Below are positions 9,180-31,560 of a stretch of DNA of 64,000 nt, one piece after another (position 1 is the stretch's first letter; every line of letters begins with the position of its first letter). Made by a program: the position numbers and the translations under genes. The notes beneath the pieces were generated by a model, which was not told the origin of the DNA, searched no databases, and saw only the letters and a program-made list of their open reading frames with translations. Source of the stretch: Eledone cirrhosa (lineage: Eukaryota); NCBI GenBank assembly GCA_964016885.1, contig OZ024742.1, forward strand, positions 6,696,001-6,760,000, in the 5' to 3' direction.

Positions 9180-9242
9180 ATTATATTTTGTCTGATGAGG
9201 ACGTACTGTTGTACATCCGAAATATGTATAATAAAATGTAAT
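9180..9242 (+). ncRNA. Minimal type I hammerhead ribozyme motif (PLE pLTR type)
   Basis: Stem I ATTATATTTTGT/ATAAAATGTAAT (12 bp with 2 G.U), CTGATGA 9192-9198, stem II GGACGTAC-TGTT-GTACATCC, GAAA 9219-9222, near-palindromic stem III ATATGTAT, predicted cleavage after A9230. Confidence 0.8.
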
Positions 9243-9379
9243 TGATCAAAAGAAGATCTATTTTATTAATATTTATATTCTAATATTAATAACTCCAGAA
9301 AATTATTTAACCGTAGAGTGCTTCCAATCTACTGTAAAACTCATTCTTTGATATACTCATTGAATTTTGTTTAACTCTT

Positions 9380-9414
<35 letters not shown>

Positions 9415-9774
9415 AAAATGGGGAGAAATCTGATGATGTGTGTGTGTTAAGGTTTGTAACGTATGCACGTCCACAATTTCAAACGGATTCTATTCAAAGT
9501 CGGGACAATTATTGCTTTTGGTCAGGAAATCCATCCACAATAAGGGCAAAAATTGATCATGATCATTCCCCCTCTCTATAATTTAACTGCTTTACTCTCT
9601 CTGTCGCTCTTCACTCCCTATATGACAACACTGCATTAGAGCGTTCCGTATTGAGCGTTCCATATTGAGCGTTCCGTATTGACATACGGCTTATGTGGGG
9701 CATTTTCAATCGGCTTATTGCAAATAACAACCCGCAAAATAACACTTCATATAACAGATTAATGCTATAGACAT

Positions 9775-11040
9775 ATGAATCGGAATGTAACCCGTGAACT
9801 TTTTCCTGGGCAAAATTATTCGAACAGACATGACCTCATTGCCACAGTGTTCAGACTGAAACTGGCTAAAGTCATGGCTTTAATCAAAAAGGGTCAGGTA
9901 TTTGGGGCTGTAAAATGTGACATGTTCACCGTCGAATGGCAAAATCGAGGGCTGCTACATGCTCACATTTTGATTTGGTTAACTGATAAAATCAATTCAA
10001 ATGCCATAGACAGCTTCATTTCGGCTGAAATCCCTAACCCAGCAACTGACCAGGAATTACATGACATCGTCAAAGCTAACATGGTCCGTGTGCGTCGGGT
10101 CCTAATGAGCATCACACGTATCTGAAAGGGAGACCGTGCAGTAAGGGATACCCCCAAAAATGTGTTGACCACACTCAGACTCGTGGCGACGGGTACCCCC
10201 TGTACAGGCGGAGACGGTCCGAGAACGGTGACTTCACCACAACAGTAAAGGGAGGTCAAGTCGACAATAGATGGGTGGTCTCTTACTGCCCTCTTCTCTT
10301 GAAGATGTCCAACGCCCACATCAACGTTGAGTTTTGATAAAATACATATGCAAATATGTAAATAAGGGCTCTGATGCCGCAATGTTCGCATTTCAAGCTA
10401 AAAATAGCAGGGACGAGGTCACAGAATACCTGGCGGGGCGGTACATCAGTAGCAATGAAGCTTTTTGGCACCTATTTGGTTTACCCCTACACCAACGGCA
10501 CCCCGCCATCGTATAGCTTGCGGTACATTTGGAAAATGGGCAAAGGGTTTACTTTACGGACCAAACCCCACCAAGTTGGCCGCCGATCCGAAAGAGAACA
10601 CTCTGGCGGGTTTCTTCAAACTTTACCAGTTCGATACATTTACGCAAACAATTGTGTACCCCCAGGTTCCATCCTACTTTATATGGTCGAAAAACACTTG
10701 GGTGCGAAGAAAGTCATGTCAGGCTGTTGAAAGATATCCTGGTGTAAAATTTGACAGCTGTCTTGTAAGGGTTTACACTGTGCCCCCAAGTCAGCACGAG
10801 TGCTTTCTTCATCTCCGCCTTCTTCTGCATGAAGTTGTAGGCCGACAATTTTTTCAGGACATCAAAACTGTTGATGGAGAAATATGTGATACGTACCGGG
10901 AAGCCTGCTTTTGCGAGGTCTTTTGGAAGATGATTCGCAATGGGATTCCACTTTAGCAGAGGGTGCTTTGTTGAAATCACCTAAAGGTCTACGGAAACTC
11001 TTTGCCATTTTGCTTCAAAAGTGTGAATTGGGTGATCCAC
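9775..11040 (+). pseudogene. Decayed Helitron RepHel fragment (HUH Rep domain and downstream region)
   Basis: VEWQNRGLLHAHILIWL (HUH motif 2), IKYICKYVNKGSD (YxxKY motif 3), RYISSNEAFW, LRLLL..V.G..F.DIKTVDG, split over several frames with stops. Confidence 0.9.
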
Positions 11041-12457
11041 CCTCAATAAAAAACGCCCCCCCCCCCAATAAAAACGGAGCCCCCAATAAAAAATGGAGCC
11101 TCCACCCCCCAGATAAAAAAGGGAACCCCCTCATAAAAACCGGACCCTTCTCCCCCCAAAATAAAAAAACAGATCCCCCAATAAAAAACCGAGTCGCCCC
11201 CCCCCCCAATAAAAAACGGACTCCCCCAATAAAAAACGGATTCCAAATAAAAAAAAGCCCCCCACAAATAAAAAACGGACCTTCAATAAAAAATGACCTC
11301 CTCCACCCCAAATAAAAAACGGATCCCCCAATAAAAATCGGACCCCACCCCCAATAAAAAGAACGGATTCCAAATAAACATCTCCCCACAAATAAAAAAC
11401 GGACCCTCCAAATAAAAAACTGATTCCCCCAATAAAAAAACGGACCCACCCATAAAAAACGGACGCCCCCAACAAAAAACGGATCCCCCCAAATAAAAAA
11501 ACGAACCCCACACCCGTAAAAAACGGACCCCCTCCCCCAAAAAACGGACCGCCCCAAGCAATAAAAACGGATCCCCCCAAATAAAAATGGACACCCCAAT
11601 AAAAAACGGACATCCCCAAATAAAAAACGGATTCCAAATAAAAAGCACCCCCCAATAAAAAACGGAACCCACCCAATAAAAAATGGATCTCCCCACTCCC
11701 CCCAATCAACAAAGGTTACCAAATAAAAAAACGCCCTCCCCTCCCCTAAAATCAAAAACGGATCCCCCATAAGAAACGGCCCCCCACAAAAAAAAAACGG
11801 ACCCCCTCATAAAAAACGGATACCCCCAAATAATAAACAGACTCCCCCAATAAAAACCGGACCCCCTATAAAAAACGGACCCGCCAAAATAAAAAACGGA
11901 TTCCAAATAACCCCCCCCCCCCTCACAATAACCCAACCCCATAAAAAACGGACCCCCAAAATAAAAAAACGGATTCCAAACAAAAAACGGATCCCCCCAA
12001 ATAAAAATCGGATCCCTCAATGTAAAACGGACCCCCAAATTAAAAACGAACCTCCCAATAAAAAACGCCCCCCCCATAAAAAATGGACCCCACCATAAAA
12101 ATTGGATTCCAAATAAAAAACGCCCCAGCCCCCAATAAAAAACGGACCCCCCCCAAAAAAAACGGATTCCAAATAAAAATAACGCCCCTCCCGAATTGAA
12201 AAACGGATCCCCCAATTGAAAGACGGATCCCCCCATAAAAAACGGACCCCCAAATAAAAAACGGACCCCCCCAATAAAAAACGGACCACCCCAATAAAAA
12301 ACAAACCCCTCTCCCCAATAAAAAAAAACGGATTCGCCCGGATAAAAAACGGACCCCCAATAAAAAACGGAGCCGTCAATAAAAAACAGACTCCCCCCAA
12401 TAAAAAACGGATCCCCCCCAATAAAAAACGGACCCGCCCCCCAATAAAAAACGGATC
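11041..12457. repeat. Degenerate ~19-bp satellite CCCCCAATAAAAAACGGA
   Basis: Direct inspection; begins where Helitron homology ends. Confidence 0.9.
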
Positions 12458-13340
12458 TCCTGAAAAGTTCTCTCTGACCATCATTGACTCTCAAAAGTTC
12501 TCTCTGACCATCATTGGCCCTCAAAAGTTCTCTCTGACCATCATTGGCCCTCAAAAGTTCTCTCTGACCATCATTGGCCCTCAAAAGTTCTCTCTGACCA
12601 TCACTGGCCCTGAATAGTTCTCTCTGACCATCATTGGCCCTGAATAGTTCTCTCTGATCATCATTGGCCCTGAATAGTTCTCTCTGACCATCATTGGCCC
12701 TCAAAAGTTCTCTCTGACCATCATTGGCCCTCAAAAGTTCTCTCTGACCATCACAGGCCCTCAAAAGTTCTCTCTGACCATCACTGGCCCTGAATAGTTC
12801 TCTCTGACCATCATTGGCTCTCAAAAGTTCTCTCTGACCATCACTGGCCCTCAAAAGTTCTCTCTGACCATCACTGGCCCTCAAAAGTTCTCTGACCATT
12901 ACTGGCCCTGAATAGTTCTCTCTGACCATCATTGGCCCTCAAAAGTTCTCTCTGACCATCACTGGCCCTCAAAAGTTCTCTCTGACCATCACTGGCCCTG
13001 AATAGTTCTCTCTGACCATCATTGGCCCTCAAAAGTTCTCTCTGACCATCATTGGCCCTCAAATGTTCTCTCTGACCATCATTGGCCGTCAAAAGTTCTC
13101 TCTGACCATCATTGGCCCTCAAAAGTTCTCTCTGACCATCACTGGCCTTGAATAGTTCTCTCTGGCCATCACTGGCCCTCAATAGTTCTCTCTGACCATC
13201 ACTGGCCCTCAAAAGTTCTCTCTGACCATCATTGGCCCTCAAAAGTTCTCTCTGACCATCACTGGCCCTCAAAAGTTCTCTCTGACCATCACTGGCCCTC
13301 AAAAGTTCTCTCTGACCATCACTGGCCCTCAATAGTTCTC
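12458..13340. repeat. 30-bp minisatellite CTCAAAAGTTCTCTCTGACCATCA(T/C)TGGCC, about 29 copies
   Basis: Exact 30-bp period, one 2-bp deletion near 12890, degenerate copies to about 13500. Confidence 0.95.
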
Positions 13341-13734
13341 TCTGACCATCACTGGCCCTCAGTAACCGTCACTGCATTTCACTGGCCCTCAAAACTTCTC
13401 GTTTGTCCTCACTAGTTCACATCGGCTCTTAAAACTTTCTTACTCACTCTCATTGGACCCCAAAAGCTCTCACTGACCATCACTGGTCCTCAGTACCCCT
13501 TACAGATCATTCGAAATGATTGAGTGTGATATGGTTGATGTTCCGCTTAAAGAGTTGCACGTTATCTCCTGTAGAAATGTTGTAAGGAACGAGAAGTAGT
13601 GTTTTATAACTATAAAGAACTGTGCATCTCCTGCTGTATTTTATAACTATATGCAATTGTGCATCTGCAACAGAGGTTTTATAAACCGAGGTATATAAGC
13701 TGCAATTTATTCTTGTCTCAGTTGTGAATGAGTA

Positions 13735-13783
13735 AACATCACTGATGATGGATACAAATCCTGAAACACTAGCGTCTGGCGTT
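13735..13783 (+). ncRNA. Minimal hammerhead ribozyme motif downstream of a TATA-like box
   Basis: AACATCA-CTGATGA(13742)-T-GGAT-ACAA-ATCC-T-GAAA(13763)-CACTAGCG-TC-TGGCGTT; stem III close to palindrome ACGCTAGCGT; GTATATAAGC at 13691-13700. Confidence 0.75.
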
Positions 13784-14412
13784 CTCCCATGTCTACTGTG
13801 GCAGGTGTGACAAGATCACAGCTTAAATCATCATGTATGTATATTATATATATAAATATCTTATATGCCTCTATAAACATCTCTATTATAATCACGCTCT
13901 GTTAGTATTTCTGATAGTTACATGTAGTAACAATAAAAGGGGAAGAGGAACAGGACCACATCTGTGGAAGTGAGGCTGTTGTGTGTGTGTTTGAGGAGGG
14001 GCTGCTGGTTTATTTCTGGCGTGTGTGTCCGCCCGTGTGATAAGGGGCTGCTGGTTTATTTCTGGTGTGAGTGACAAGAACTGGCTACTATATATATTAT
14101 TCCCTTCTGGGTAAATAGTACTTAATTGTGGGTCTTAATTTTGTAGAGTCCTTAATAGAAATATTTCCAGGCTCTGAAGGGAAGGATTACTGTTTGAGAT
14201 GTGGATCTAGCTATATTAACGAGACACTTTCGTGGGGAGAGACCCTCCGTTAATATGAGGCTTATCATTCTAAGGCTATGGTGAGGGCTCTAACAGGGTA
14301 CTGCTCATATTGGAGGAAGCTGAAATACAATGATTATTCTTTATATAAGCAGTGCTTGTGTATTTTTGTGGGGCTTTCGAGAGAGACAACATGGGCATGC
14401 GGTTATATATAT

Positions 14413-14462
<50 letters not shown>

Positions 14463-14980
14463 ATATTTGGGGAGGGTCATATTTGCGTAATATTGCCAGA
14501 ATTAATAACAGAACACACTCACTGTTTGGTTGGTTTTCGCTTCTCGCTGTCTTTTATATATATATATCTGCGATCTAACTTACTCGGTCCTCAATGTTGC
14601 CATTGACTGACCGGCGGTCAAAAATAATACAGATACAATATAGACACAAACACATATATATAGTTTACATAATTTACATAAATCTTTCGTTGCACATCTG
14701 CAACATCGTCAGTGGTGTTATATTCATTGTTCCTCCTGTTGTGTTGTATGTCTACGCCATTTTTTTTTTTTTTTGTTCAGTCTGTCTATATATTTATTTA
14801 TTTATTTGCTTGTTTGTTTATCTTATTTTATTTTGTCTTCTTTGCGCATGCGTTTGCGTGTGTGTATAGTGTGATGTGTGACTAGTGTGTATAGTGTTGT
14901 GTCTGCTGGGTGACTAGTGTGTGTTTATGTGCTTGTGTATGTATTTATTTATCTTATTTTATTTAATTTTATTTACTTAT

Positions 14981-15856
14981 TTATACTTCTCTTAGGTCAG
15001 TGTTGTTTGTTTGGGTGTTGTTGTTGTTCCACTCATTCTTTCTGTTTAGCTTTGGTCTTCTAATTTCTATTTCACTGGCCTCTCTGATTTGCCTATCTGC
15101 TGGGTCATTCCTATGTTTAGATATTATTCTAATTTCTATGTTGTCTATGTTACCGTCATGTTGTTGTCTAGCATGTTCGTATAGTACTGACCCGTTTTTT
15201 CGTCCTTTTAGTTCCCCCCAGTGTTGGTCTATCCTTTCACCTATGCTACGAGCTGTCTCACCTATGTATGTTGTTGTCATGTTTCTGCAAGTACCCTCTG
15301 TACATCTTATGCTATAGACTACGTTTCTAGTTTTACAGTTTATCCGGGGGTTCACCTTACAAATGATACATTTCCTATTGGTACAGTGGGTTTTCTTAAA
15401 AGGGTAGGTTTTGCTGATCAGGGATTTTATGGTGGTTCCTGGCTTTTCTACCACCTTTATTTTTAAGTGGGTCTTTCTCAGGGCCTTTCTACACTGGTTA
15501 GCTAATTTCCCTCCAGGGGTGGCGTCCACAAACATGACAATCTGATATCTCTGGTTGTCGTACCATGATGTGGCCTTCCCTATCTTATGTCTAGCCCTAT
15601 CTAAGCTATTCCATGATTTGCTCCTGTATAGTGGGCAAATTCCTTTCATGTCCAGTTCTATGAGGGTCTTATACTTTTCCATGGCTCCTTCGTATACTCT
15701 GACTCTGTCTCTTTGGTTGTAGCCAGAGAACTGCATGCGGTTGATGAAGTGTTGGATGTGTCCTTCCATTTCTGTTGGGTCGCACATGCTGGACACATTC
15801 TTCATCACTCGTACCAAATCTGCGATCAGAATATTAAACTTAACACTACTGGACAT
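14981..15856 (-). CDS. PLE ORF fragment (RT thumb end, Cys-rich linker, GIY-YIG endonuclease), left arm
   Basis: VVYSIRC...YIGETARSIGERIDQH...REASEI...LN: GIY-YIG motif with conserved R, H, E, N; no RT catalytic core. Confidence 0.85.
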   Translation of the reverse strand: MSSSVKFNILIADLVRVMKNVSSMCDPTEMEGHIQHFINRMQFSGYNQRDRVRVYEGAMEKYKTLIELDMKGICPLYRSKSWNSLDRARHKIGKATSWYDNQRYQIVMFVDATPGGKLANQCRKALRKTHLKIKVVEKPGTTIKSLISKTYPFKKTHCTNRKCIICKVNPRINCKTRNVVYSIRCTEGTCRNMTTTYIGETARSIGERIDQHWGELKGRKNGSVLYEHARQQHDGNIDNIEIRIISKHRNDPADRQIREASEIEIRRPKLNRKNEWNNNNTQTNNTDLREV

Positions 15857-16755
15857 TGCTGATACTCAAAAACTCAGCAATGTCCAGTAGTGCTAAGTTT
15901 AATATTCTGATCGCAGATTTGGTAAGAGTGATGAAGAATGTGTCCAGCATGTGCGACCCAACAGAAATGGAAGGACACATCCAACACTTCATCAACCGCA
16001 TGCAGTTCTCTGGCTACAACCAAAGAGACAGAGTCAGAGTATACGAAGGAGCCATGGAAAAGTATAAGACCCTCATAGAACTGGACATGAAAGGAATTTG
16101 CCCACTATACAGGAGCAAATCATGGAATAGCTTAGATAGGGCTAGACATAAGATAGGGAAGGCCACATCATGGTACGACAACCAGAGATATCAGAGTGTC
16201 ATGTTTGTGGACGCCACCCCTGGAGGGAAATTAGCTAACCAGTGTAGAAAGGCCCTGAGAAAGACCCACTTAAAAATAAAGGTGGTAGAAAAGCCAGGAA
16301 CCACCATAAAATCCCTGATCAGCAAAACCTACCCTTTTAAGAAAACCCACTGTACCAATAGGAAATGTATCATTTGTAAGGTGAACCCCCGGATAAACTG
16401 TAAAACTAGAAACGTAGTCTATAGCATAAGATGTACAGAGGGTACTTGCAGAAACATGACAACAACATACATAGGTGAGACAGCTCGTAGCATAGGTGAA
16501 AGGATAGACCAACACTGGGGGGAACTAAAAGGACGAAAAAACGGGTCAGTACTATACGAACATGCTAGACAACAACATGACGGTAACATAGACAACATAG
16601 AAATTAGAATAATATCTAAACATAGGAATGACCCAGCAGATAGGCAAATCAGAGAGGCCAGTGAAATAGAAATTAGAAGACCAAAGCTAAACAGAAAGAA
16701 TGAGTGGAACAACAACAACACCCAAACAAACAACACTGACCTAAGAGAAGTATAA
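15856..16755 (+). CDS. PLE ORF fragment (RT thumb end, linker, GIY-YIG endonuclease), right arm
   Basis: Same protein as left arm except V/A and I/S; frame stays open through the palindrome loop (LLILKNSAMS). Confidence 0.85.
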   Translation: MLILKNSAMSSSAKFNILIADLVRVMKNVSSMCDPTEMEGHIQHFINRMQFSGYNQRDRVRVYEGAMEKYKTLIELDMKGICPLYRSKSWNSLDRARHKIGKATSWYDNQRYQSVMFVDATPGGKLANQCRKALRKTHLKIKVVEKPGTTIKSLISKTYPFKKTHCTNRKCIICKVNPRINCKTRNVVYSIRCTEGTCRNMTTTYIGETARSIGERIDQHWGELKGRKNGSVLYEHARQQHDGNIDNIEIRIISKHRNDPADRQIREASEIEIRRPKLNRKNEWNNNNTQTNNTDLREV

Positions 16756-17017
16756 ATAAGTAAATAAAATTAAATAAAATAAGATAAATAAATACATACA
16801 CAAGCACATAAACACACACTAGTCACCCAGCAGACACAACACTATACACACTAGTCACACATCACACTATACACACACGCAAACGCATGCGCAAAGAAGA
16901 CAAAATAAAATAAGATAAACAAACAAGCAAATAAATAAATAGATATATAGACAGACTGAACAAAAAAAAAAAAAATGGCGTAGACATACAACACAACAGG
17001 AGGAACAATGAATATAA

Positions 17018-17060
17018 CACCACTGACGATGTTGCAGATGTGCAACGAAAGATTTATGTA
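17018..17060 (+). ncRNA. Hammerhead-like motif in the PLE 3' repeat (mirror copy at ~14676-14717, minus)
   Basis: CTGACGA(17023)-T-GTTGCA-GATG-TGCAAC-GAAA(17047)-GATT-TA; perfect stem II, weak stem I. Confidence 0.65.
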
Positions 17061-17334
17061 AATTATGTAAACTATATATATGTGTTTGTGTCTATATTGT
17101 ATCTGTATTATTTTTGACCGCCGGTCAGTCAATGGCAACATTGAGGACCGAGTAAGTTAGATCGCAGATATATATATATAAAAGACAGCGAGAAGCGAAA
17201 ACCAACCAAACAGTGAGTGTGTTCTGTTATTAATTCTGGCAATATTACGCAAATATGACCCTCCCCAAATATAACAATATCTGTTTCGACACACGATTTC
17301 ATATAAAAAACCTCGCAAAACTAATTCATCGCCG

Positions 17335-17384
<50 letters not shown>

Positions 17385-17392
<8 letters not shown>

Positions 17393-17948
17393 GTACATAC
17401 ATATATGTATACAGACGTACTGTAGTATGTATATATATATACATACCTGCACACATATATATATGTACGTATGGATTCACCGAACATTTATTATAATGCT
17501 CGGTGTGTTTGTAAACAAACATCCCGTATTAAGCCGTAGTGTCTAGCAACCATCGTTGCTCGTTTGTTCAACACTGACAAAGGAACGTTGTACTAGTTTC
17601 AAGCTTATTATCTATCGTCAGCAACGTAAACCTTCCTGCCAGATTGTTGAACGTATATACTTACCTTATGCATATTAACGGCTGAGTAGCCCAATTTGCA
17701 TATCGAGTGGGTTAATCGGCCGGGTAAAACGATAAACGATAAACGGAGAAAATGAAACGAAATTTCATTTCCCACTCTTAGTACGGCTGTTACTTACGGT
17801 TTAATACGGGATGTTTGTTTACAAACACAGCGAGCATTATAATAAATGTTCGGTGAATCCATACGTACTCATATATATGTGTGCATGTATGTATATATAT
17901 ATACATACTACTGTACGTCTGTATACATATATGTATGTACGTGTACAT
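17385..17948. repeat. ~150-bp inverted repeat (17385-17538 / 17795-17948) enclosing a hammerhead; pLTR-like remnant
   Basis: GGATTCACCGAACATTTATTATAATGCTCG..CATCCCGTATTAA occurs reverse-complemented about 260 bp downstream. Confidence 0.8.
17585..17627 (-). ncRNA. Minimal hammerhead ribozyme motif
   Basis: Minus strand ACGTTG-CTGACGA-TAGATAATAAGCTT-GAAA-CTAG-TA-CAACGT: perfect 6-bp stem I, palindromic stem III ACTAGT, weak stem II. Confidence 0.75.
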
Positions 17949-18019
17949 ACTTATATTTGGTGGACAGCACGGGCGCGGGTGAGAGCGGTGTGGACGAGAG
18001 AGGGGGGGAGGGTAACCTC

Positions 18020-18600
18020 TGCGGATGAAATGGCTGACTAGGGAAAGGGCCTGGGACTCAAAGTCAGCATCTCGGCTACAGAGGCGGCGGATCCTGAGGA
18101 GTTGGGAGCAGGAAATAGTGTTTAATGTGTGGGTGGGGTGGGAGAAGGTGAAGTCGAGGTAGGAGTGGAAGTCGGTGGGTTTGAAGAAGGCGGAGGTGAT
18201 GAGGGAGTGGTGGGAGGGGTGGAAGGCGACGGAGATGTCTAAGAAGTGGACGTGGGTGGTGGAGATAGAGGTGGTGAAGTAGAGGGAGGGGTGGAAAGAG
18301 CAGAAGAAGGAGAGAAAGGAGTCGAGCTGTTCTCGGGTGAGGGTCGTGGCTCCGATACAGTCGTCGATGTAACGACCGTACAGTTCGGGCGTGGGGCCGG
18401 TGTACTGGGCAAAGATTTGGGCCTCAACATGGCCAACAAAAAGGTTGGCATAGTTTGGACCCATTCTTGTACCCATGGCTACCCCCGTGACCTGTTGGTA
18501 AAACTCACCCGAGAAGGAGAAACGGTTGAGGGTGAGGACCAGCTCGGCGAGGCGAAGGAGGGTGGGGTGGAGGGGATGGGGGAGGGGCGAAGGTCGAGGT
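18020..18600 (-). pseudogene. PLE reverse transcriptase fragment (resembles Neptune-type PLEs)
   Basis: FYQQVTGVAMGTRMGPNYANLF, GRYIDDC, FLDI, FKPTDFHSYL, SQLLRIRRLCS. Confidence 0.88.
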
Positions 18601-18639
18601 AGATATATATATATTAGACATATTACGTGTTAGATTCCC

Positions 18640-19723
18640 GGACTTCCACACGGGAATATACCGCGACGATGGACTGACCTTATCGAACCATAAAAGTGGT
18701 CAAGACCTCTACTGGTTTACTTAGCTTCTACCTTCAATGAGTTAGGACTTAGGATAACAGTAGCTACCAACCTCTCTAGCGTAGATTTCTTAGACATTAA
18801 TTTAGACTTTCGCACACACCTACAGACCCTTCCATAAGCTAAACGAAAAACTCAATTACATTCACAAGGACTCATGCAACCCTCCCACTGATTTTAGAAA
18901 CTTCGTAAATAATATCAGTACTAGAATCTCAAACCTATCCTCTAATATCTTTGACAGGGCGGCACCCTACTATAACACGGCGTTAGCTAACAGCGGCTTC
19001 TCGCAACCTATCACTTACTCTCCCACTAACAACAACAGCAATAAGAAAAGAAAGCGTAACAATAGACAAACTATCTGGTTCGCTCCTCCCTTCTCAGTCA
19101 ACGTTAAAACCTATGTAGGCAAAAGAATTCTAGCCCTCTTAGATAGACACTTTCTCATAGGTCATAAATACCGCTCCATCTTTAACCGACACAAAGTAAA
19201 ACTAGGATACTCCTGCGCTAAGAACATGAAGGCTGACATCACCAACAGCCCTAAGAGCAACACCCCATCAGGGTGCTATTGCCGTAAGCCCAAAGCTTGT
19301 CCCCTTCAACAGCAATGCAACACACCCGCTGTAGTTTATGAAGCTGTGGTCACTTCCAACCGACCAAATCAACCACAGGAGGTCAAATCCTATGTGGGTA
19401 TGGCGGAGGGCCAATTTAAGTAAAGCATCCTGAACCACCAGTCTACCTTTAGGTACCCGGACAGACGTTCATCCACGAAACTCGCGAGCCACGTATGGTC
19501 CCTCAAGGACTCAAGTATAGACTACTCCATTCAATGGAAAGCCATCACTAAGTCCAAGCCATACGCAAGGGCCAATCCGTGGTGTGGACCATGTATTGAT
19601 AAACAAATAAATATTCTAAAGAGATTGCGCAATAGTGATTGCCTAAACATGAGGACTGAATTCTTCACACGTTGTCCACACGTCTGGAAACACCTCTTAC
19701 ATAACTTCAAAGCTCCGGATTGA
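18640..19723 (+). pseudogene. PLE RT C-terminal half plus GIY-YIG, decayed (resembles Naiad-type PLEs)
   Basis: GIYRDDGL at 18653, VDFLDI, IWFAPPFS, KLGYSC, CYCRKPKACPLQQQC, VVY..YVGMAEG.FK*..NH, C..C, LNMRTE...CPH; frameshift near the start and TAA at 19421; ends TGA 19721-19723. Confidence 0.85.
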
Positions 19724-19892
19724 ATTACAACAACATCCTAATTTTCTTATCAACTAAAAAATGTTCGGACTTTCGAAGTTATCTCCCTTACACCTCTCGC
19801 ACGCATTTTAGTATTGCCTGTGTGAAGTGATCGTTTCTGCGCATGCGCGTTCGTACAGTTGTCCTTCCTGTTCCGTATAACAATGTCTATTA

Positions 19893-19930
19893 CGAGCTGA
19901 GGATCCGCTAAGCTGAAACAATAGTTCTCG
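19893..19930 (+). ncRNA. Degenerate hammerhead motif in the 3' repeat of the upstream PLE
   Basis: CGAG-CTGAGGA-TCCGCTAAGCT-GAAA-CAATAG-TT-CTCG, 170 nt after the PLE stop codon. Confidence 0.55.
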
Positions 19931-19994
19931 GTATGGTGAACTAACTGTTGTGTAACCACTTATATATATATATATATATATATAATATACAAAT

Positions 19995-21030
19995 GAAAGG
20001 TATAGAAAGTATTGTAGCAAGAAGCCAACAGTATTCCATAATATATAAGTGACTATAGCGTCAAAATGGGAAAATAGTTAACGTAAGATGTGGGAAAAAT
20101 AATTCAAACTCAATTCAAAAAGAAACAGGATATAGATTTATCCAACAGAATTTAGTGAAATCCATGGAAAAATCAATAGAGCCTTAACTCATGATAAAAT
20201 AAAGTTTAAAATACTCATCCTTCAATTTGGCACAACTACAAATGCTCTGTATAGTCTTGAAAAAGACTATTTCACGAAAACTTTCAGTGGAGATGGTCAC
20301 GGTTGGAATACGATCATTAGCAGAGCTCAACACGATAGCCAGATTCTCACTGATTAATATGCCAAAAAGAGAATTTAAAAGCAGGCTAGTTTAACATCAT
20401 GCGTGATTATGAAAATAAAACGCACGTGTGGAAAAACAGGGCTGGTGACGTCAGAATGAGATGAATGTTTGTTTACATGAAACAACAGTCAAAAACATTC
20501 CGAAAAAACTCTACAATAAGGAGTTCAGCAAAAAGCAATATTATCGCGTTTTTTTTTTTAAATACCGGGTTTAGTCACAAATAATTTAAGCACTCTAGGA
20601 AAGAAATCCGAGTATAAATATATAAATAAAAGGTATAGAAAGTATTGTAGCAAGAAGCCAACAATATTCTATAATATATAAGTGACTATAGCGTCAAAAT
20701 GGGAAAATAGTTAACGTAAGATGTGGGAAAAATAATTCAAACTCAATTCAAAAAGAAACAGGATATAGATTTATCCAACAGAATTCAGTGAAATCCAGGG
20801 AAAAATAAATAGAGCCTTAACTCATGATAAAATAAAGTTTAAAATACTCATCCTTCAATTTGGGACAACTACAAATGCTCTGTATAATCTTGAAAAAAAG
20901 TATTTCAAGAAAACTTTCTGTGGAGATGGTCACGGTTGGAATACGATCATCAGCAGAGCTCAACACGATAGCCAGATTCTCACTGATTAATATGCCAAAA
21001 AGGGAATTTAAAAGCTGGCTAGTTTAACAT
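19995..21030 (+). repeat. Two copies (19995-20398, 20628-21030) of an unclassified ~400-bp element; third copy at 30909-31308
   Basis: AAAGGTATAGAAAGTATTGTAGCAAGAAGCC...GGCTAGTTTAACAT repeated; each copy begins after a TA-rich tract. Confidence 0.85.
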
Positions 21031-21174
21031 TTCCCGGACACTTGCACCCCTCCCCTTTCCATTCACATTTTTTAAAATTCTGTTTTTATTTATTTTGATT
21101 TCTATTTTCCCCGTCCTTTCATGTTCTTCCAATTAACTCCCCTCCTCACCCCCTCACGGAGCCCCCGCACCCTG

Positions 21175-21240
21175 CTTTTCTGATGAAGGACTTATGTCCG
21201 AAACGTCGTAACCTCCTCCACTTTACCAAGCGAAAAGCTA
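21175..21240 (+). ncRNA. Hammerhead-like core in a probable solo PLE terminal repeat
   Basis: CTGATGA(21180)-A-GGAC-TTAT-GTCC-GAAA(21200)-CGTCG-TA; no adjacent stem I, though GCTTTT could pair with AAAAGC at ~21233. Confidence 0.55.
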
Positions 21241-21360
21241 ATGACACCATGTACTATTGACTTTTGCGTGTGTTTGTCTGTTTTTTGCTATATATGTATG
21301 TGTATATATATATATATATAGTATAAAAGAGAAAACACAGGTATATATATATATATACCC

Positions 21361-21957: not shown

Positions 21958-22159
21958 CACACACACACATATATATATATATAAATATATACATATATAT
22001 ATATACTGTCCACTCTTTCACTCTGTCTAGGAGGTTTTATCCCCAAGCTTTTAAACTATTCTTCATAGTTAAATCTGTTAACTTTAACCTAAAATACATT
22101 AAATATTCATACCTTTCTCACCGGTTCTGAACGTAGATTGTATATATATACATATATAT

Positions 22160-22390
22160 ATGATGGCTGCCACCTCGTTATCGAGTATAGCTATTGCACG
22201 ATATACGATTATTAATAAGTATTAATTAATTCTATCCCTCAATGCCTGTGCGTGAAGATAGTTTATAAAGTGAGGAAAGACTGTGCACTGAGCCAATCCC
22301 ACTCTCTGAGCGACAGTAGCTATAACCCGAAAAGAAGAAAAGATGAACATCATCGGTAACTACTGAGCCGCAGGTTTATATCGGAGCTAT
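22160..22390 (-). mobile_element. Shorter relative of the RTE-derived element at 7286-7890
   Basis: Shares TGATGGCTGCCACCTCGTTATCGAGTA and AATGCCTGTGC..CCAATCCCACTCTCT..CAGGTTTATATCGGAG blocks. Confidence 0.6.
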
Positions 22391-22700: not shown

Positions 22701-22808
22701 CTTTCTACTTTTGGCACAAGGCCAGCAATGACCCAATACATTACTGGTACTTTATTTTATTGATCCCGTAATGATGAAAGGCAAAGTTAACCTCGACGGG
22801 ATTTTAAC
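22701..22808 (-). mobile_element. 3' part of the tRNA-derived SINE
   Basis: Reverse complement of 458-566. Confidence 0.8.
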
Positions 22809-23705: not shown

Positions 23706-23709
23706 ACTG

Positions 23710-23980
23710 CAGTGCAGTGCAACAACACGTCATAACTTCTGGAGTTCGCAACCGATTTTCACAAAAGTTGACACATGGGCTACGTTTGGTATACAGATGA
23801 ATGTGAACTCTCAGAATTGGCACATATTGAGTAGGGGACCTCTGGGGGCAGGAACCCCGTTTGGAAAAACCGATGATTTTGTAAAAGTATAGTTTTCGAA
23901 GCAGCACTGAAGTATTGACATAAATGGTATACATAACTGCTATTTAATACGCGAGCAACGCCGGGTACCTCTGCAAGTTT
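23710..23980 (+). mobile_element. Probable non-autonomous Helitron-like element
   Basis: Ends with GC-rich CGAGCAACGCCGGGTACCTCTGCAAG, resembling a Helitron 3' hairpin plus CTAG-like terminus. Confidence 0.45.
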
Positions 23981-24220
23981 TATATAAACTGCATTAGGAA
24001 AGAATTAGCGACAGAAAATTATTATGTTTATTTAAGTGATCGCCACCTGAAGTGATGACATCACACACTCTCTCTTTCTATGTATATATGGTAGTTGAAG
24101 TGGTGGTGGTGGTGGCAACGATATACCGGGAGTGCAACTTTGAAAATAAGTCAATTTTAAATTATTTTTGTTTACGAAATTTAGTAGATAAATTATGTAA
24201 TATTAATTCATTATTTATTC

Positions 24221-24312
24221 CGTGGATTGGCAGTATCGGTAGAGGGTCGGACGCCATGCTTTGACGCATAGAGTTACGACCCTTTCCATTCTGAGTTCAA
24301 ATCCCACTGAGA
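24221..24312 (+). mobile_element. 5' head of the tRNA-derived SINE, truncated
   Basis: Matches 384-472 including A and B boxes. Confidence 0.8.
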
Positions 24313-24935
24313 CAGACAGAGAAATTGCTGGTTATATATATAAGTAGACTAGCAGAAATCCGCCCACGGGTGGTTTTCTGCTAGTATATATATTACACAC
24401 ACAGAAATGTATATATATTTCTGTAGCACTCCTCAATTCCCCCCTCTCTCCCTCCCGCTATCCCCCTCTTGTAGTCTGTCTCTTTCTTTCACTCTCACTC
24501 TCTCTACGCGTGCGCAAAAAACATTCGCACGCGCGCACGTGTTTTAGCGTCTATTCACTCTCTCTCTCTCCCTCTCTCCCTCCCGCTATACCCCTCTCGT
24601 AGTCTGTCTCTTTCTTTCACTCTCACTCTCTCTCTACGCGTGCGCAAAAAACATTCGCACGCGCGCACGTGTTTCCACTGTCGGACAGACAGATAGAGAA
24701 ATTGCTGGTTATATATTATAAGGAGATATCGTCTTTTTTTAATGTATCATGGATTATGTTACTGATTACATAAGACAGTGTAACAACGTCTTCGTTTAAT
24801 TTCTGTTTATATTGTCAATTACGATTTTATTTGATGTATCATATCTACATGTATATATACTTGCGTATAATATCAATATACACACTACACATGCTAGCAG
24901 AAAACCACCCTAAAGGTGGTTTTTCTGCTACTATA
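24312..24935. repeat. Composite non-autonomous repeat: two palindromes and a ~105-bp direct duplication
   Basis: CTAGCAGAAA..TTTCTGCTAG hairpins at 24348-24385 and 24894-24931; 24440-24543 repeated at ~24570-24673; AGAGAAATTGCTGGTTATATAT twice. Confidence 0.6.
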
Positions 24936-25081
24936 AATAATATAAAATATATAATATATAAAGGTACACTCTTTAGTTTTTTATGCCCTTGAGAAGCCCT
25001 TTCGGGCGAAACGTATGTAGGTGCTGCTTTAAATAAACATATTTTAACGGTTTTCTTCTCCTTTATATACTTCTCCATATG

Positions 25082-25162
<81 letters not shown>

Positions 25163-25166
<4 letters not shown>

Positions 25167-28100
25167 CTATCTATCTATCTAAGGCGGGTAGAATTCCCGA
25201 GATCCATGGACGAGTTCTCTCCAGCGGTCTCTGTCCCCCATTATCGCTGCCATATCCTGCATCTCCAACAGACCAGTGTCTGTCCTTAGGGCATCAACAT
25301 ATGTTAACCTTGGTCTTCCTCTTCTAGTGTGTCCATGTAGGGGCTCCCAAAGGAGCACTGAGTGCAATGTCAACTCTGGATGTCGGTGAGCATGTCCAGC
25401 CAACCTCAGTCTCCTCTGTGTCACTTTTGAGCTGACTTTTGGGATGCTCCCATACAGCTCTGAGTTTTTCATCCTCAGTGTATACTGATTAATGTTCAGA
25501 GCCATCCTCAGCATTCTCGTGTAGCACCCATCCACCATCTGAGTGAGTCTCTTGGTCAGTGTCCAAGTCTCAGACCCATACAGCAGCACAGACTCCACTA
25601 CAGCAATGAAGAGGCGGACTTTCAGGTCTCTACGAAAGTCCGACTTCCACACCGATCTCAAGCTGTGACACGCCGCCCAGGCCTTGCTCTTCCTCTCAAC
25701 CACATCATCTTCCGTATTCCCAATCTTTGCTCCCAAATACAGGAAGTCCTCAACCAATTCCAGCAGCTTCCCGCCTACATTAGTGATCCCCTCTGGCTTC
25801 TCAACATTCTCTACCAGATATTTTGTTTTAGTCTCATTCATTCTCAGCCCCACACTCATCGACACAGTCTCAACCTCCCGCATCAAATCCTCTGCCTCCT
25901 TCACTGTATTTGTCACCAAAACTATGTCATCGGCAAATTCAGCATCCGATACCTTTTTCGCCCCAACTCTCCTGCTCTGAGCCGGTGCTACAGTAAAGCC
26001 AGAGTCCTGGTGTTTCTCCAGTGCAAGGCGCATACAATAGTCCACTACGATGATAAAAAGGTAGGGAGCCAATGTATCTCCCTGGAGCACTCCAGCCAGT
26101 ATCTCAAAGAACTCTGTCATCCCATCAGGTGTAATGACTTGGGCTTTGGTGTTGGTGTAGAGCAGTGATATCAGGTCCACTATCCTCTTGGGGATTCCAT
26201 AAGCCTGTAAGATCTTCATCAGGCAGTAACGGTCCACAGAATCAAAGGCCTTCCTAAAGTCAATGAAAACCATGACCGCAGGAAGGCACTTTGCTCTAGC
26301 TCCCTCTAATATCCTCCTCAGCATCAGGATGTGACTGGTGGTTGATCTACCCTCTCTGAAGCCGTTCTGGTTGTCCCTGAGCTTCTTCTCCATCTCAGGC
26401 TGGATCCTGTTAAGAATCATCCTGTTGAGGGTCTTTGCCACAAGTGACGTCAGTGAGATCCCCCGGTAGTTGTTGGTGTTAGAGAGATCTCCCTTCTTTG
26501 ACACTGGGACGATGTTACTGATCCTCCACTGATTCGGGGCAACTCCTTTCTCCAGTGCCCCGTTACAGAACCCCAGGATGATATCATCAAAATCACACCT
26601 CTTCATCACCTCTGATGCCACTCCATCTTCTCCATGAGCCTTGCCCTCCTTGATCTTCTTCTTGGCTCTCTGAAGCTCCTCTCTGGTGAAGGACTCTGTC
26701 TCAACATCCAGTTCCTCAAACAGCCGCCTGATCTCCCCAGTGCTCTGGGCTGTGGAGGGTGGCTCTCCTAGTAGGGTCCTAAAATAGTCTAGCCATTTCC
26801 TCTTCCTATCCTCGGGCCCCGTTCCCTGGATCTGACTCGAACACCTTTTCTTCCTCCCTGTGATCTCGTTGATGATCATCCAGCTCTCCTTACATCCAGA
26901 TCTGTCAACCGCTCTCTCCACACTTCTGATCTTCTCTATCAGTGCCTCCTCTCTGACCTCAGTGTAAGCGGTACAGAGCTCTTCCCTCATCACCTCCACA
27001 GTCTCCATCCTCTCCTCCGTAGGATCAGCATAGAATTGGTCCCTGGCAGCTTTCAGGTGTTCTCTGGCTGCACACACTTTTGGGTTTGCAGAGCTGAGGT
27101 GCTTCCCTTTGTTCTTTTTCCTCGGCACCAGGGTTTCACTTGCTTTCGCCACTGCATTGGTGAAGTGCCCGTACCTCCTCGTCACACTCTCCTCAGTCCA
27201 TCCAATCTCTCTCTCCTCTGACTCTCCACACAGAGCACTAAACCTGTTTCTCACTTCCACTGTGAACCTCTCCTGTAGCTTATCATCTTCCTTGAAAGCT
27301 CCCCAGTCATAGATTGTTCTCCGGGGCTGAGCCTTGCTCTTTCTTAAGCTCACGCGGACCTCACTCATAACAAGCCGGTGGTCACTACCTAGTGTACTGA
27401 AATAGCTGTATGGTTCCGTGTTCAGAACACTATTCCGCCACTTTTTCCTCACCAGAATGAAATCAATCTGGGACTTGGACAGGTGCATATCTGAGATGTA
27501 GGTCCACATCTTCCCCAGATTCTTCCTAAACCTTAGGTTGGTCACCATCAAGTTCGCCTCCAGCAGGGTGTCTCTCAGTAGTCTTCCATTTCTGTTGGTG
27601 TTGTTATGGAAGTACCAGCAAGGATCTTCACTGCTCTCCTTACTCAGATGTGCATTGAAGTCCCCCAAAACAAGCAGGATATTGTGTGCCTGAGTGGTGT
27701 TGACAGCTCTACACACCTCCTCATGGAACTCCCCGGCATTCACATCACTGCCCCCCTCGGTTGGACTATAGGCTGAGATGACTGTCAGTCTTGGGTTTCC
27801 ATTGAAGGTCACCCTCAACACTCGCGGGGAGATAGGCATTATTTCCCTCACCAACAGATTGGTTTTTGCACTAAACACAAAACCCACTCCTCCCACTGCA
27901 GCATTTGTTGTGTTCTTCACTGCCGATGTAGTGATGAGCTGGCTCTTCCTCCCGATCATCACACTCCTCACGGGCTCATCGTGTAGAATCCTGTGTTCTT
28001 GGATCGCAAGTATCTGTATACCACTCTCCTCGAACAGATGTCCCAACTCCTCTCTCTTCTCCAGCGTTCGAATAGTCCTCACATTCAAAGTGCCCATTTT

Positions 28101-28488
28101 GATGGCTCTCCTGCAGGACAAAACTGCATTCTTTATATTTGTCTCAGAGACAGCTGATCCATCATCCACTGGCCCTCTCTGTGGCTCTAAGCCAGCAGAG
28201 TCATAACGACCAGACTGCTCCTTGACAGTGTAATTAGGGGCTCTAACCCTAGTGCTGTTAGATCGACTCTCCATATTTCTTTTCAATGGATGACAATACC
28301 TTACCGGCGCCACTCGAATAAGGTAGTTATTTAACCCATAAATGGAGCCCTAACAGGTACTACCACCCTGGGCCAGGGCAGACCTGGGAGTCATGACAAC
28401 TAAGGGGTAACTCCACATTCCCCACATCTCCTGAACTCCCGAACTGGAGCCTTGCCACTGGATGTAGTTTAATGTCATACCCAGGACA
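25163..28488 (-). mobile_element. Apparently full-length RTE-clade LINE inserted in (TA)n
   Basis: ~210-nt 5' UTR, single intact ORF, (TAGA)n tail, long (TA)n on both sides. Confidence 0.92.
25179..28274 (-). CDS. RTE LINE ORF: APE endonuclease plus reverse transcriptase (1031 aa from the first ATG; frame open to 28313)
   Basis: APE: [37 protein letters not shown]: [51 protein letters not shown]-terminus [12 protein letters not shown]. No stops or frameshifts. Confidence 0.96.
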
Positions 28489-28511
28489 TATGTATGTATG
28501 TATATACATAT

Positions 28512-28581
<70 letters not shown>

Positions 28582-28666
28582 TTGAGATAAGCAGAACAAG
28601 CAAAATTCAAACAATATTTTAAAATAAATAAAAAAATATAATTTAAATATTTACCTACTCCAGTTG

Positions 28667-28746
28667 CTTTTACCGATCGGTTTCACTTCACAAAACATTA
28701 GAAATCCATGGGGACCTCCAATGGAAAAGTCAAGATCATCAGAGAT
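28667..28746 (-). ncRNA. Hammerhead-like motif with extended stem II
   Basis: Minus strand CTGATGA-(51 nt)-GAAA-CCGATCGG-TA; perfect palindromic stem III ACCGATCGGT; weak stem I. Confidence 0.5.
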
Positions 28747-29827
28747 ATATATATATATATATTTATTTATATATTTATCTATCTTTCTGTCTGTCTCTCT
28801 CATTCTTATATAATATATCTGTTAGAACACGAAAAGTGTGAAACAACAGAATGTTCACTTTTCGTGTTCTAACATATATGCCTAACATCTTCATAAATTT
28901 TCCCGGGATAGCCGTGGTGGTGGTGATCGTATGTCATTGGCTAATTTTCAACCAATCAGAGTAAGTGTTGATATATATATATACTATTCCCCCTCTCTCT
29001 ATATATATCTTACGCTTTACACTCCTCCCCTTCAATAACACATTTCCCCCTCTCTATATATCTCTTCCACTGTTACTTACGCCTGTTTCTCTCTATCTGT
29101 TCCGTCTCTATATATATATCTCTTACTCTTTCGCTTTGCACTCCTCCCCTTCAATACCATCTCTCCCCCTCTCTATATATTTGTTACTCTATCGCTGCAC
29201 GCTCCTCTCCTTCAATATATCAATTACACACGCTTTACACTCCTTTATCCCCAGCGCCCCTATATATACACCCCCCTCCCGCATCTATATTTTAATGTTC
29301 CGTTGCACCGTGAATATATGTGTCTATATATATATACATATATATTGTATATACACATTCATGTATGTGTATACACACTCATGTATGTATATACACTGGT
29401 TTTATGTGTGTATTGTAAATTTGTACTGTTAAAACACGAAACTAACATTCGATTGACACTTTACCTGTACAGGCAATAGTTATTAGAATGCTGTTGAAGT
29501 GTGTATATATTTTTGGGGGACATCCTGTATATACACACATTATATATAATACAATAAACAGATAAATACACACATATATATATGAGCTTATTTAATTATA
29601 AATATTGTGAATTTTTAACTCAGTTCAATTATATATATAAATGGCTTCTACAGGACTAGAACTGTTTCATTCGAAAGAAATCATCATAATATTGAGAGGG
29701 GGGACTAGATAAAATATTTCAAATCAAATGTGTATAAGTTATAAGTTAAAATGTATAAATAGAGACGATAGTGGAGGTATATCTGTTTAGTGGAACAGTA
29801 GACGATAGAATTAAATACAGACGAGAA

Positions 29828-30424
29828 TAGTTAATTCTTAGAGTGTAACATATAAAAATAAATACATCTATGTTTAATGTAATAACAGCTATAAATAATT
29901 ACGTAATATTATTATCATATACTCATAGTAACAAAATAATTGTGTTGAAAATTAATATGATGCTTATATGAACGATCAAATCTATAATGATAATTTCTTA
30001 AATATACTAATAGTAAAATAATTTAGTTATCTATTGTTACATTTTCATAGAACTATAATATTAACAATCGTATTGCATTATCAAATTTTTATCACTACAA
30101 ACTTTCATATTGGAATTACCTTAAGCCACTTATTATTACTTCGCTTTCGTACTTTTACAGCTGTAGATATTGCGCTGTATCTTATATCTAATATCAATAT
30201 CTCATGGTAATTTGCATGCAGTGTAAAATAGGTTTATTAATAACTTTAATATGAAATGTATTATACAGGGCTGCGGAGTCGGCCAAAAATTGACTGGCTC
30301 CAACTCAGGATCCGATACTCCATTATTTCCTAAATTTCAGCTCCGCAGCTCTGTTATTATATTAATTAAATTATTTTATAGTTGTAAATCATATTTTTAT
30401 ATGTTACACTCTAAGAATTAACTA
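29828..30424. mobile_element. 597-bp segment bounded by perfect 33-bp inverted repeats
   Basis: TAGTTAATTCTTAGAGTGTAACATATAAAAATA at 29828-29860 and its reverse complement at 30392-30424. Confidence 0.6.
30266..30353. mobile_element. 88-bp hAT-like MITE
   Basis: TIRs CAGGGCTGCGGAG / CTCCGCAGCTCTG; 8-bp flanks GTATTATA / TTATTATA (7 of 8 match). Confidence 0.7.
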
Positions 30425-30602
30425 AGTGAAATAGCGTAAAAATAAAGGCTTCGTTGGTTTAAGCTATTTTTATAAAGGATGCCACAGAATGTACGATATA
30501 TAATGATTACAATATTTTTTAGCAACAACTCTAGTCCCACACTTTTGAAGGTTTATTATAACATTCTGTGGCACTTTTGAGCTTGCGCATTTTTCATGTC
30601 TA

Positions 30603-30665
<63 letters not shown>

Positions 30666-30870
30666 ATATAGAAATGGATTCTACAGGACTAGAACTGTTT
30701 CATTCGGGAGAAATCATCAGGCAGCTAACTGCCCAAGTAATATGGTGGTATTTATATCTTTTCTGGTCGTAGGAGAGGGTGGTGATTGGGATGGGTGGAG
30801 GCCATTAGTTGTTGGGTTTAAAGAAAAAGGAATTCTTTAAAATCTAAACCTATCAAAGAATGGCCTCCAC

Positions 30871-30908
<38 letters not shown>

Positions 30909-31305
30909 GAAAGGTATAGAAATTGTTTTAGCGAGAAGCTAATAGTATTCTATAACATATATGCGACTATGTCGTCAATATGGGAAAAGTAGTTAACGTA
31001 AGATTTATGAAAAATAATTCAAACTCATCTCAAAAGAGAATCAGGATATAAATTCATCCACAGAATTTAGTGAAATCCAGGGAAAAATCAATACACCTTT
31101 AACTCATGATAAAATAAAGTTTAAAACACTTATCCTTCAATTTGGAATAACATCAAATGCTCTGTATAGTCTTAAAGACTATTTCATGAAAACTTTTAGT
31201 GGAGATGGTCACGGTTGGATTTCAATCGTCAGCAGAGCTCAACAGATAACCAGGGCTACCACAGAATTATAAGCCAAAAAGGGAATTCTAAAACTGGCTA
31301 GTTCA

Positions 31306-31370
<65 letters not shown>

Positions 31371-31374
31371 GTAA

Positions 31375-31560
31375 AAATGGATTCTCCAGGACTAGAACTG
31401 TTTCATTCGGAAGAAATCATCGTGGCTTTCTGATGATTTCTCCCGAATTAAACAGTTCTAGTCCTGTAGAATCCATTTCTATATTAAATATTTATACTCT
31501 GCTTTGTATTGAGTAGCTTACTTACAGTGGTTATCCCCGATTGAACCCGGGTTAAACATA
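31375..31560. repeat. Short foldback of a hammerhead-like pLTR sequence; further copies at 29641-29688 and 30662-30730 (minus)
   Basis: ATGGATTCT.CAGGACTAGAACTGTTTCATTCGG.AGAAATCATC, a 9-nt spacer, then its reverse complement; core CTGATGA-TTTCTCCCGAAT-GAAA. Confidence 0.7.

What the first reader, a model, noticed from the sequence alone, without database searches (positions are those of the whole stretch)
9180..31480. About ten different minimal hammerhead ribozyme motifs within 22 kb
CTGANGA-stem II-GAAA cores occur at 9192(+), 13742(+), 14712(-)/17023(+), 17621(-), 19897(+), 21180(+), 28742(-), and as a three-copy family at ~29686(-), 30720(-) and 31430(+); a decayed one sits at ~24989(+). 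Stems differ in sequence yet several keep pairing. Stem III is often a (near) palindrome (ACTAGT, ACCGATCGGT, ~ACGCTAGCGT, ~ATACGTAT), as established for PLE minimal hammerheads thought to cleave as dimers. Several have no adjacent ORF, suggesting solo pLTRs or retrozyme-like non-autonomous elements from many lineages. An ORF-based annotation would miss all of them.
Basis: partly seen in the sequence, partly recalled or inferred. Interest (0 to 1): 0.7.

Follow-up and report, generated by a model that had tools for sequence, protein, structure and literature searches.

The report
Hammerhead ribozyme ends of Penelope retrotransposons
This stretch is a pile of broken ends of ten families of jumping genes, each carrying a small RNA motif predicted to cut itself; the motifs are real and very common in this animal genome, and they are of a known kind.

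Summary
Cores are 13 against 2.2±1.5 in shuffles. Each family recurs genome-wide (17 to about 27,000 exact pattern hits, controls 0), and helix I pairing holds across families.

Six families are 3'/pseudo-LTR ends of Penelope-like elements (PLEs), whose reverse transcriptase and GIY-YIG genes I found in other copies. Four are non-coding, partly tandem, retrozyme-like repeats.

- The site at 24989 is not decayed; it has the known U3-A8 core.
- Nine of the 16 copies are damaged.
- The window is about 4 times the genome mean (one core-pattern hit per 9.4 kb), not a unique cluster.

All features match published PLE hammerheads and animal retrozymes. Cleavage and expression are untested. This scan already noted the same system on other pieces of this genome. 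Verdict: real, new members of a known kind, modest interest.

The parts
8940..9381 (+). Family A: 3' end of a PLE with hammerhead (core 9192; helix I 12 pairs, helix III ATATGTAT); matches the family structure; ends in (TA)n
   Evidence: (2,118 hits); PLE ORF upstream of an A hammerhead in L251
13646..13913 (+). Family B: old non-coding repeat with hammerhead (core 13742; U·U at the base of helix II; one mismatch in helix III); about 74% identical to relatives
   Evidence: 65 hits; tandem periods 281 and 293 bp in 2 of 20 loci
14455..15862 (-). Family C: inverted 5'-truncated arm of the PLE insertion, hammerhead core 14712; ends in (TA)n with no tail
15844..17335 (+). Family C: truncated PLE (RT thumb, Cys linker, GIY-YIG in 15844-16755), hammerhead core 17023 (extra U before a 6-bp helix II, 2-bp proximal helix I), then a tail of about 55 bp before (TA)n
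   Evidence: (10,988 hits); 4,147-bp full-length tandem units in L254
17337..17956 (-). Family D: non-coding retrozyme-like unit (core 17621; helix II damaged by one mismatch) with an inverted truncated arm at 17795-17956
   Evidence: (26,979 hits; 420-500 bp tandem arrays)
18806..19960 (+). Family E: broken PLE 3' part (GIY-YIG region to about 19720) and hammerhead core 19897 (helix II and helix III each carry a mismatch), then (TA)n
   Evidence: 3,969 hits; L261: PLE ORF pieces between two E hammerheads 2,532 bp apart
19985..21030 (-).
   Evidence: (534 hits)
21089..21288 (+). Family F (minor subfamily): hammerhead core 21180; helix II intact, helix I weak; ends in (TA)n
   Evidence: (6,583 hits); GIY-YIG region upstream of a main-subfamily F hammerhead in L155
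24956..25076 (+). Family I: PLE 3' end with U3-A8 core TTGAGAA at 24989; helix III ACGTATGT (family ACGTACGT); 2-bp proximal helix I; not decayed
   Evidence: (1,850 hits)
28579..28745 (-). Family G: low-copy non-coding repeat, core 28742, long loop II, helix III ACCGATCGGT; the 5' strand of helix I is replaced by (TA)n in this copy
   Evidence: (17 hits; one 486-bp tandem pair)
29636..29687 (-). Family H fragment; core ATGATGA (C3 lost), 5'-truncated
30662..30858 (-). Family H PLE end, core 30720; helix I broken after one pair
   Evidence: (26,985 hits); full-length element with a 758-codon open frame between two H hammerheads in L257
30897..31309 (-). Family J solo unit, core 31232: helix I 6 bp, helix II 5 bp above U·U with a long loop, helix III 7-8 bp; best candidate for cleavage as a monomer
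31369..31600 (+). Family H head-to-head pair: 31423(-) with the core lost and 31430(+) with TAAA for GAAA

Best explanation
The 22 kb holds the 3' ends of at least six Penelope-like retrotransposon families and four non-coding, retrozyme-like repeat families, each carrying a type I hammerhead motif predicted to self-cleave, which likely piled up here as independent insertions into (TA)n repeats. Shown: the motifs, their families and copy numbers, the PLE genes upstream in other copies, tandem and inverted arrangements, and 3' ends at fixed distances from the core. Inferred from published PLE work: the PLE protein nicks AT-rich DNA and starts reverse transcription at one of two sites just 3' of the hammerhead. 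Copying usually stops early, so even the shortest insertion keeps the ribozyme motif, often with an inverted second arm. The non-coding units D, G, J and B would borrow a PLE enzyme. In source elements the ribozyme would cut tandem transcripts, mostly as a dimer through the self-complementary helix III; H and J could close helix III alone. Most copies in this window are likely inert.
For: Core excess over shuffles. Exact family patterns give 17 to 26,985 hits with reversed controls at 0. Across the 10 families 49 of 60 helix I positions pair with their own partner against 26.2±4.3 when partners are swapped, 0 of 100,000 permutations. Within H, 28 cells are changed on both sides against 16.7±3.5; within J, 10 against 3.0±1.3 with 97.5% of cells paired. 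GIY-YIG lies 512-577 bp upstream in 15 of 30 C loci, and its motif appears upstream in 8 of 20 I loci. PLE ORFs lie beside A, C, E, F and H hammerheads. Inverted partners occur in 13 of 20 E and 14 of 30 H loci, some being two arms of one insertion. (TA)5 lies within 500 nt downstream in 211 of 247 loci against 587 of 2,000 random places, with two clusters of end positions in A, C, E, H and I.
Against: No cleavage or expression data; no RNA holder was listed. Rfam gives no hammerhead hit. None of 12 monomers folded stands out strongly from shuffles (z from -2.1 to +1.3), and few minimum-energy folds are the hammerhead. C and I keep only two contiguous helix I pairs, G has a fixed C·A mismatch at the second pair, and the window's F copy has a weak helix I. 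In H the number of covarying pairs (4) does not exceed shuffles (284 of 500), and related copies can beat the cell-level control without selection. I set the helix III register by eye, and my search patterns fixed most helix II letters. No autonomous partner was found for B, D, G or J. Pfam supports the PLE proteins only weakly (GIY-YIG E 0.019, RVT_1 E 1e-4); the assignment rests on motifs and layout. C and D hold internal TA runs that inflate the (TA)5 count.
Confidence: 0.85

Rival explanations
1. The window is a selected or functional cluster of ribozymes that processes a host transcript crossing the region.
For: 9 core-pattern hits in 22.3 kb against a mean of 2.25 and a maximum of 7 in 20 sampled 20-kb bins; negative-binomial tail about 0.009.
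Against: Strands are mixed and 9 of 16 copies are damaged. The whole 64-kb window has 10 hits against 6.8 expected. With about 134,000 such bins, a 1% tail means about a thousand similar places. No host exon was recognised; the ORFs seen are LINE, Helitron and PLE pieces.
Confidence: 0.04
2. The motifs are structural protein-binding signals or relics in PLE RNA and do not cleave by themselves.
For: C, I, G and the window's F copy have weak helix I. The anole PLE hammerhead cut only with protein, and cleavage was not needed for insertion in vitro (PMC11167929). Minimal hammerheads were weak even as dimers (PMC4209133).
Against: The catalytic core, a UH site and self-complementary helix III persist in ten families with unrelated stems, including the compensated U3-A8 core. 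J keeps three stems with covariation.
Confidence: 0.09
3. The motifs are chance matches in AT-rich repetitive DNA.
For: One hit at 18094(+) lies in a LINE-like fragment with no helix I or palindrome and is probably chance. About 29% of genome-wide core-pattern hits are matched by the reversed control.
Against: and all family searches with control 0.
Confidence: 0.01

Closest known systems
Minimal type I hammerheads of metazoan PLE pseudo-LTRs (Cervera and de la Pena 2014, PMC4209133; parts 1-2 of 4 read, supplements not seen)
   Same: Many consensus families per genome, most copies solo, palindromic positions 15.2-16.2 and loop 3, an extra base before helix II (C, F), the U3-A8 core (I), a 2-bp helix I as in the Drosophila virilis variant (C), and opposite-strand pairs.
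   Different: Six of the ten families have U·U in place of G10.1-C11.1. Counts here are far higher than the 2,000-9,000 per genome given there, though a loose sequence pattern and their descriptor are not like for like.
Animal non-LTR retrozymes (PMC7229834, parts 2-3 of 6 read; bioRxiv 10.64898/2026.07.22.740005, parts 1-2 of 5 read)
   Same: Non-coding tandem units with one type I hammerhead each (D, G, J, perhaps B); U·U at the base of helix II as in the active axolotl HHR_Amex2; co-existence with PLEs.
   Different: J (about 600-640 bp) and G (486 bp) exceed the 150-450 bp of the first paper but fit the 51-972 bp of the second. They have a loop II of about 30 nt or more, and J has a 6-8 bp helix III. 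Circular RNA was not tested.
EN+ PLEs with C-terminal GIY-YIG and Cys linker, Neptune/Nematis type (Craig et al. 2021, PMC8557442, passages read; Frangieh et al. 2024, PMC11167929, parts 1-2 of 4 read)
   Same: RT followed by a Cys-rich linker and GIY-YIG, pseudo-LTRs with hammerhead, inverted 5'-truncated arm, tail at one end, (TA)n targets.
   Different: Tails look longer (about 55 bp in the window's C copy; end clusters about 55-165 bp apart) than the 30-40 bp described. Some 3' untranslated regions are 1.6-3.6 kb long and hold microsatellites. The clade was not fixed by a tree.

Membership tests
Type I hammerhead ribozyme | Core CUGANGA (or U3-A8 variant), GAAA and a UH site in that order | tested here: met
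   for all 10 families; broken in window copies 20320, 29687, 31423, 31430
Type I hammerhead ribozyme | Helices I, II and III (III as hairpin or self-complementary for a dimer) | tested here: met
   short helix I in C and I, mismatch in G; helix II letters largely fixed by my patterns
Type I hammerhead ribozyme | Covariation that keeps the stems | tested here: met
   across families and in J; mixed in H; not run for the other families
Type I hammerhead ribozyme | Match to a curated Rfam hammerhead model | tested here: not met
Type I hammerhead ribozyme | Site-specific self-cleavage | not testable with these tools
   needs in vitro transcription
Type I hammerhead ribozyme | Loop I-loop II tertiary contact | not tested
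   none examined
Penelope-like element (families A, C, E, F, H, I) | RT with C-terminal GIY-YIG upstream of the hammerhead on the same strand | tested here: met
   RT core seen for A, C, E, H, only the endonuclease part for F and I; Pfam weak
Penelope-like element (families A, C, E, F, H, I) | Hammerhead-bearing repeat at both ends of the ORF | tested here: met
   L254 (C), L257 (H), L261 (E); not shown for A, F, I
Penelope-like element (families A, C, E, F, H, I) | Inverted 5'-truncated arm and a tail at one end | tested here: met
Penelope-like element (families A, C, E, F, H, I) | Placement in a named PLE clade by RT tree | not tested
   no reference set at hand; one search gave almost only unnamed relatives
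Non-LTR retrozyme (families B, D, G, J) | Tandem units each with a type I hammerhead | tested here: met
   D 8 of 30 loci, J 7 of 30, G 2 of 17, B 2 of 20, several loci sharing one array; L255, L264
Non-LTR retrozyme (families B, D, G, J) | No protein-coding capacity in the unit | tested here: met
   no ORF of 150 aa within the D or J arrays of L264 and L255; no GIY-YIG motif at a consistent place in B, D, G, J loci
Non-LTR retrozyme (families B, D, G, J) | Expressed as monomeric linear and circular RNA | not testable with these tools
   no RNA holder listed
Non-circularly permuted hammerhead (SGC, CSG, GCS; PMC10085705, passages read) | Blocks in permuted order with three helices | tested here: not met
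   no convincing permuted hit in the window (one GCS parse reuses the J core at 20953); the descriptor needs 4/3/3 pairs and may miss knotted forms

The most novel reading that the evidence does not exclude
This genome carries one of the densest hammerhead loads known, about 226,000 cores above control in 3.0 Gb. Family J is a long-loop, U·U-closed hammerhead with a strong helix III that cuts as a monomer, inside a roughly 630-bp non-coding RNA circle spread by a PLE enzyme; G is a rarer long-loop relative. That would be a larger, dimer-independent class of animal retrozyme.
Probability: 0.3. Interest if true: 0.5.

Novelty: new member of a known kind. Interest (0 to 1): 0.3.

Why it matters
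It is a natural library of hammerhead variants in one genome: G-C versus U·U at the base of helix II, the U3-A8 core, dimer-type versus hairpin helix III, and 2-bp versus 12-bp helix I, each with many copies and often a matching PLE protein. That allows a direct test of which PLE hammerheads cut alone, as dimers or only with protein, which the papers read leave open. The cluster itself is ordinary for this genome.

Tried and rejected
A DNA search of the own genome with the 17023 region returned nothing because common words are skipped; patterns were used instead. The first pattern for 24989 had a wrong spacing and gave 0; the corrected one gave 1,850. The first structure string for J was misregistered and corrected. 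Rfam gave only microsatellite-driven miRNA and weak snoRNA matches. Sequencing runs for the J pair: no RNA holder listed; no reads were laid. A scan for permuted hammerheads in the window and fetched loci found no convincing family. Type III wiring for the weak-helix-I families was not seen in that scan. Lünse et al. on dimer cleavage of PLE hammerheads is not held; I saw only its title and the review's account (PMC6765202, passages), and its variants may already cover the U·U and long-loop forms. Supplements of the cited papers were not read and may list cephalopod examples. Literature searches found no paper devoted to cephalopod hammerheads; the Octopus vulgaris repeat paper PMC13282606 (passages) reports recently active Penelope-like families and does not use the word ribozyme. 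The protein search gave no clade name.
Full report
Setting. The window is G000:C3:6696001-6760000 in a 2,996-Mb genome. Satellites fill 1288-6553 and 43733-64000. Between them lie LINE, Helitron and PLE pieces and many (TA)n runs. Earlier AI notes call this genome cephalopod; I did not test that.

Observation. All listed sites are present. In 9180-31480 the core with a 7-45 nt spacer occurs 13 times against 2.16±1.53 in 300 local dinucleotide shuffles (maximum 8), and a three-stem descriptor gives 4 against 0.08. The total is 16 copies in 10 families. One further core match at 18094(+) has no supporting stems and is treated as chance.

Each motif belongs to a genomic family. Exact pattern hits on both strands, with reversed-pattern controls of 0 in every case: A 2,118, B 65, C 10,988, D 26,979, E 3,969, F 6,583, G 17, H 26,985, I 1,850, J 534. 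These are lower bounds. The generic core with a 7-20 nt spacer gives 317,852 hits against 91,529 for the control. That is one hit per 9.4 kb, and an excess of about 226,000.

How unusual is the window? It has 9 generic hits in 22.3 kb, against 45 in 20 sampled 20-kb bins (mean 2.25, maximum 7) and 13 in the 190 kb of flanks. A negative-binomial fit to those 20 bins puts it near the top 1%. The whole 64-kb window has 10 against 6.8 expected. It is dense but one of many such places.

Structure. Across families, 49 of 60 helix I positions pair with their own 3' strand against 26.2±4.3 for swapped partners (0 of 100,000). Helix III is fully self-complementary in 8 of 10 families and a hairpin in H and J; I chose the register by eye. 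In 43 H copies, cells changed on both sides number 28 against 16.7±3.5, but the number of covarying pairs does not exceed shuffles. In 32 J copies 97.5% of cells pair and 10 cells change on both sides against 3.0±1.3. B, D, E, G, H and J have U·U at the base of helix II (mostly fixed by my patterns), a feature reported for an active axolotl hammerhead (PMC7229834). Family I has TTGANAA in 17 of 20 copies, the U3-A8 covariant described in PMC4209133. Against: C and I have only two contiguous helix I pairs, G has a fixed mismatch, monomer folds are unremarkable, and Rfam has no hit.

State of the window copies. Matching the family structure: 9192, 14712, 17023, 24989, 31232. Marginal: 13742, 21180. 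Damaged: 17621, 19897, 20320, 20953, 28742, 29687, 30720, 31423, 31430. The only intact pair from one family (C) lies on opposite strands, and the one same-strand tandem pair (J, 633 bp apart) has both copies damaged.

What carries them. C sits after a GIY-YIG ORF in the window and in 15 of 30 loci; L254 holds 4,147-bp tandem full-length units. E follows a broken PLE in the window, and L261 has PLE ORF pieces between two E hammerheads. L257 has a 758-codon open frame with RT and GIY-YIG motifs between two H hammerheads 5,966 bp apart. L251 has a PLE ORF ending 1.6 kb before an A hammerhead. L155 links a GIY-YIG region to F. Eight of 20 I loci show the endonuclease motif upstream. Pfam support is weak, and one search found 1,198 mostly unnamed relatives of the H protein among 7,992 candidates scored. 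B, D, G and J show no ORF and form tandem units of about 281-293, 420-540, 486 and 600-640 bp; no autonomous partner was found for them. Inverted arms are common. The 3' ends abut (TA)n in 211 of 247 loci against 587 of 2,000 random places, with two clusters of end positions in A, C, E, H and I. In the window the + arm of C has a tail of about 55 bp that the inverted arm lacks.

Mechanism. Shown: anatomy, families and partners. From the literature: PLEs form truncated, tandem and inverted insertions with a tail and favour (TA)n (PMC8557442). An anole PLE protein nicks AT-rich DNA and starts reverse transcription at two internal sites that define the tail, and its hammerhead cut only with protein (PMC11167929). 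Minimal hammerheads cut weakly and as dimers (PMC4209133; review PMC6765202). Animal retrozymes are proposed PLE derivatives (bioRxiv 10.64898/2026.07.22.740005). Inferred: copying starts just 3' of the hammerhead, so the motif is the part most often left behind, and TA-rich ground gathers many families.

Comparison and novelty. Everything seen fits known PLE hammerheads and non-LTR retrozymes. My searches found no paper on hammerheads in cephalopods, but one key paper and all supplements were out of reach. Earlier notes of this scan describe the same system elsewhere in this genome and a permuted hammerhead, which I did not find in this window. The residual interest lies in the scale and in family J.

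Verdict. Real; new members of a known kind; interest 0.3.

Noticed in passing
window 22149-22389 (minus strand); a longer related copy at about 7170-7970: Abundant repeat ending in (TATG)n or (TA)n (31,918 exact pattern hits, control 0) with a roughly 150-nt motif whose stems covary among three subfamilies (9 of 27 predicted pairs changed on both sides). It has no hammerhead core and no Rfam match. From recall it resembles RTE 5'-UTR-derived non-autonomous elements; this was not confirmed (PMC5786205, passages).
   Followed up: partly
window 25179-28490 (minus strand): LINE with a 1,056-codon open frame (AP endonuclease plus RT). Its 5' region near 28325-28350 resembles the 23-bp RTE-like Ceph-SINE string quoted in PMC5786205.
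   Followed up: partly
L121:2766-5440 (G000:C1:1241766-1244278): Nine near-identical 311-bp hammerhead units in tandem ending in (TA)n, a family not present in the window.
   Followed up: partly
window 9448-13645: Broken Helitron (Helitron_like_N E 1.5e-15) followed by 21-bp and 30-bp minisatellites.
   Followed up: no
window 43733-64000 and 1288-6553: An 18-bp satellite of over 1,100 copies running off the window end, and a 20-bp satellite.
   Followed up: no
L171-L187, upstream of the family G core: A 7-nt stretch in loop II is complementary to a stretch about 33 nt upstream of the core that can also form its own 8-bp hairpin; a possible pseudoknot or switch, seen by eye.
   Followed up: no
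L250, L262, L263, L267, L079: Further hammerhead families with long helix II or loop II, related to A and G, occur in the fetched loci.
   Followed up: no
window 32567-35330 and 36909-40600 (minus strand): Two more LINE remnants with RT, the second also with AP endonuclease.
   Followed up: no
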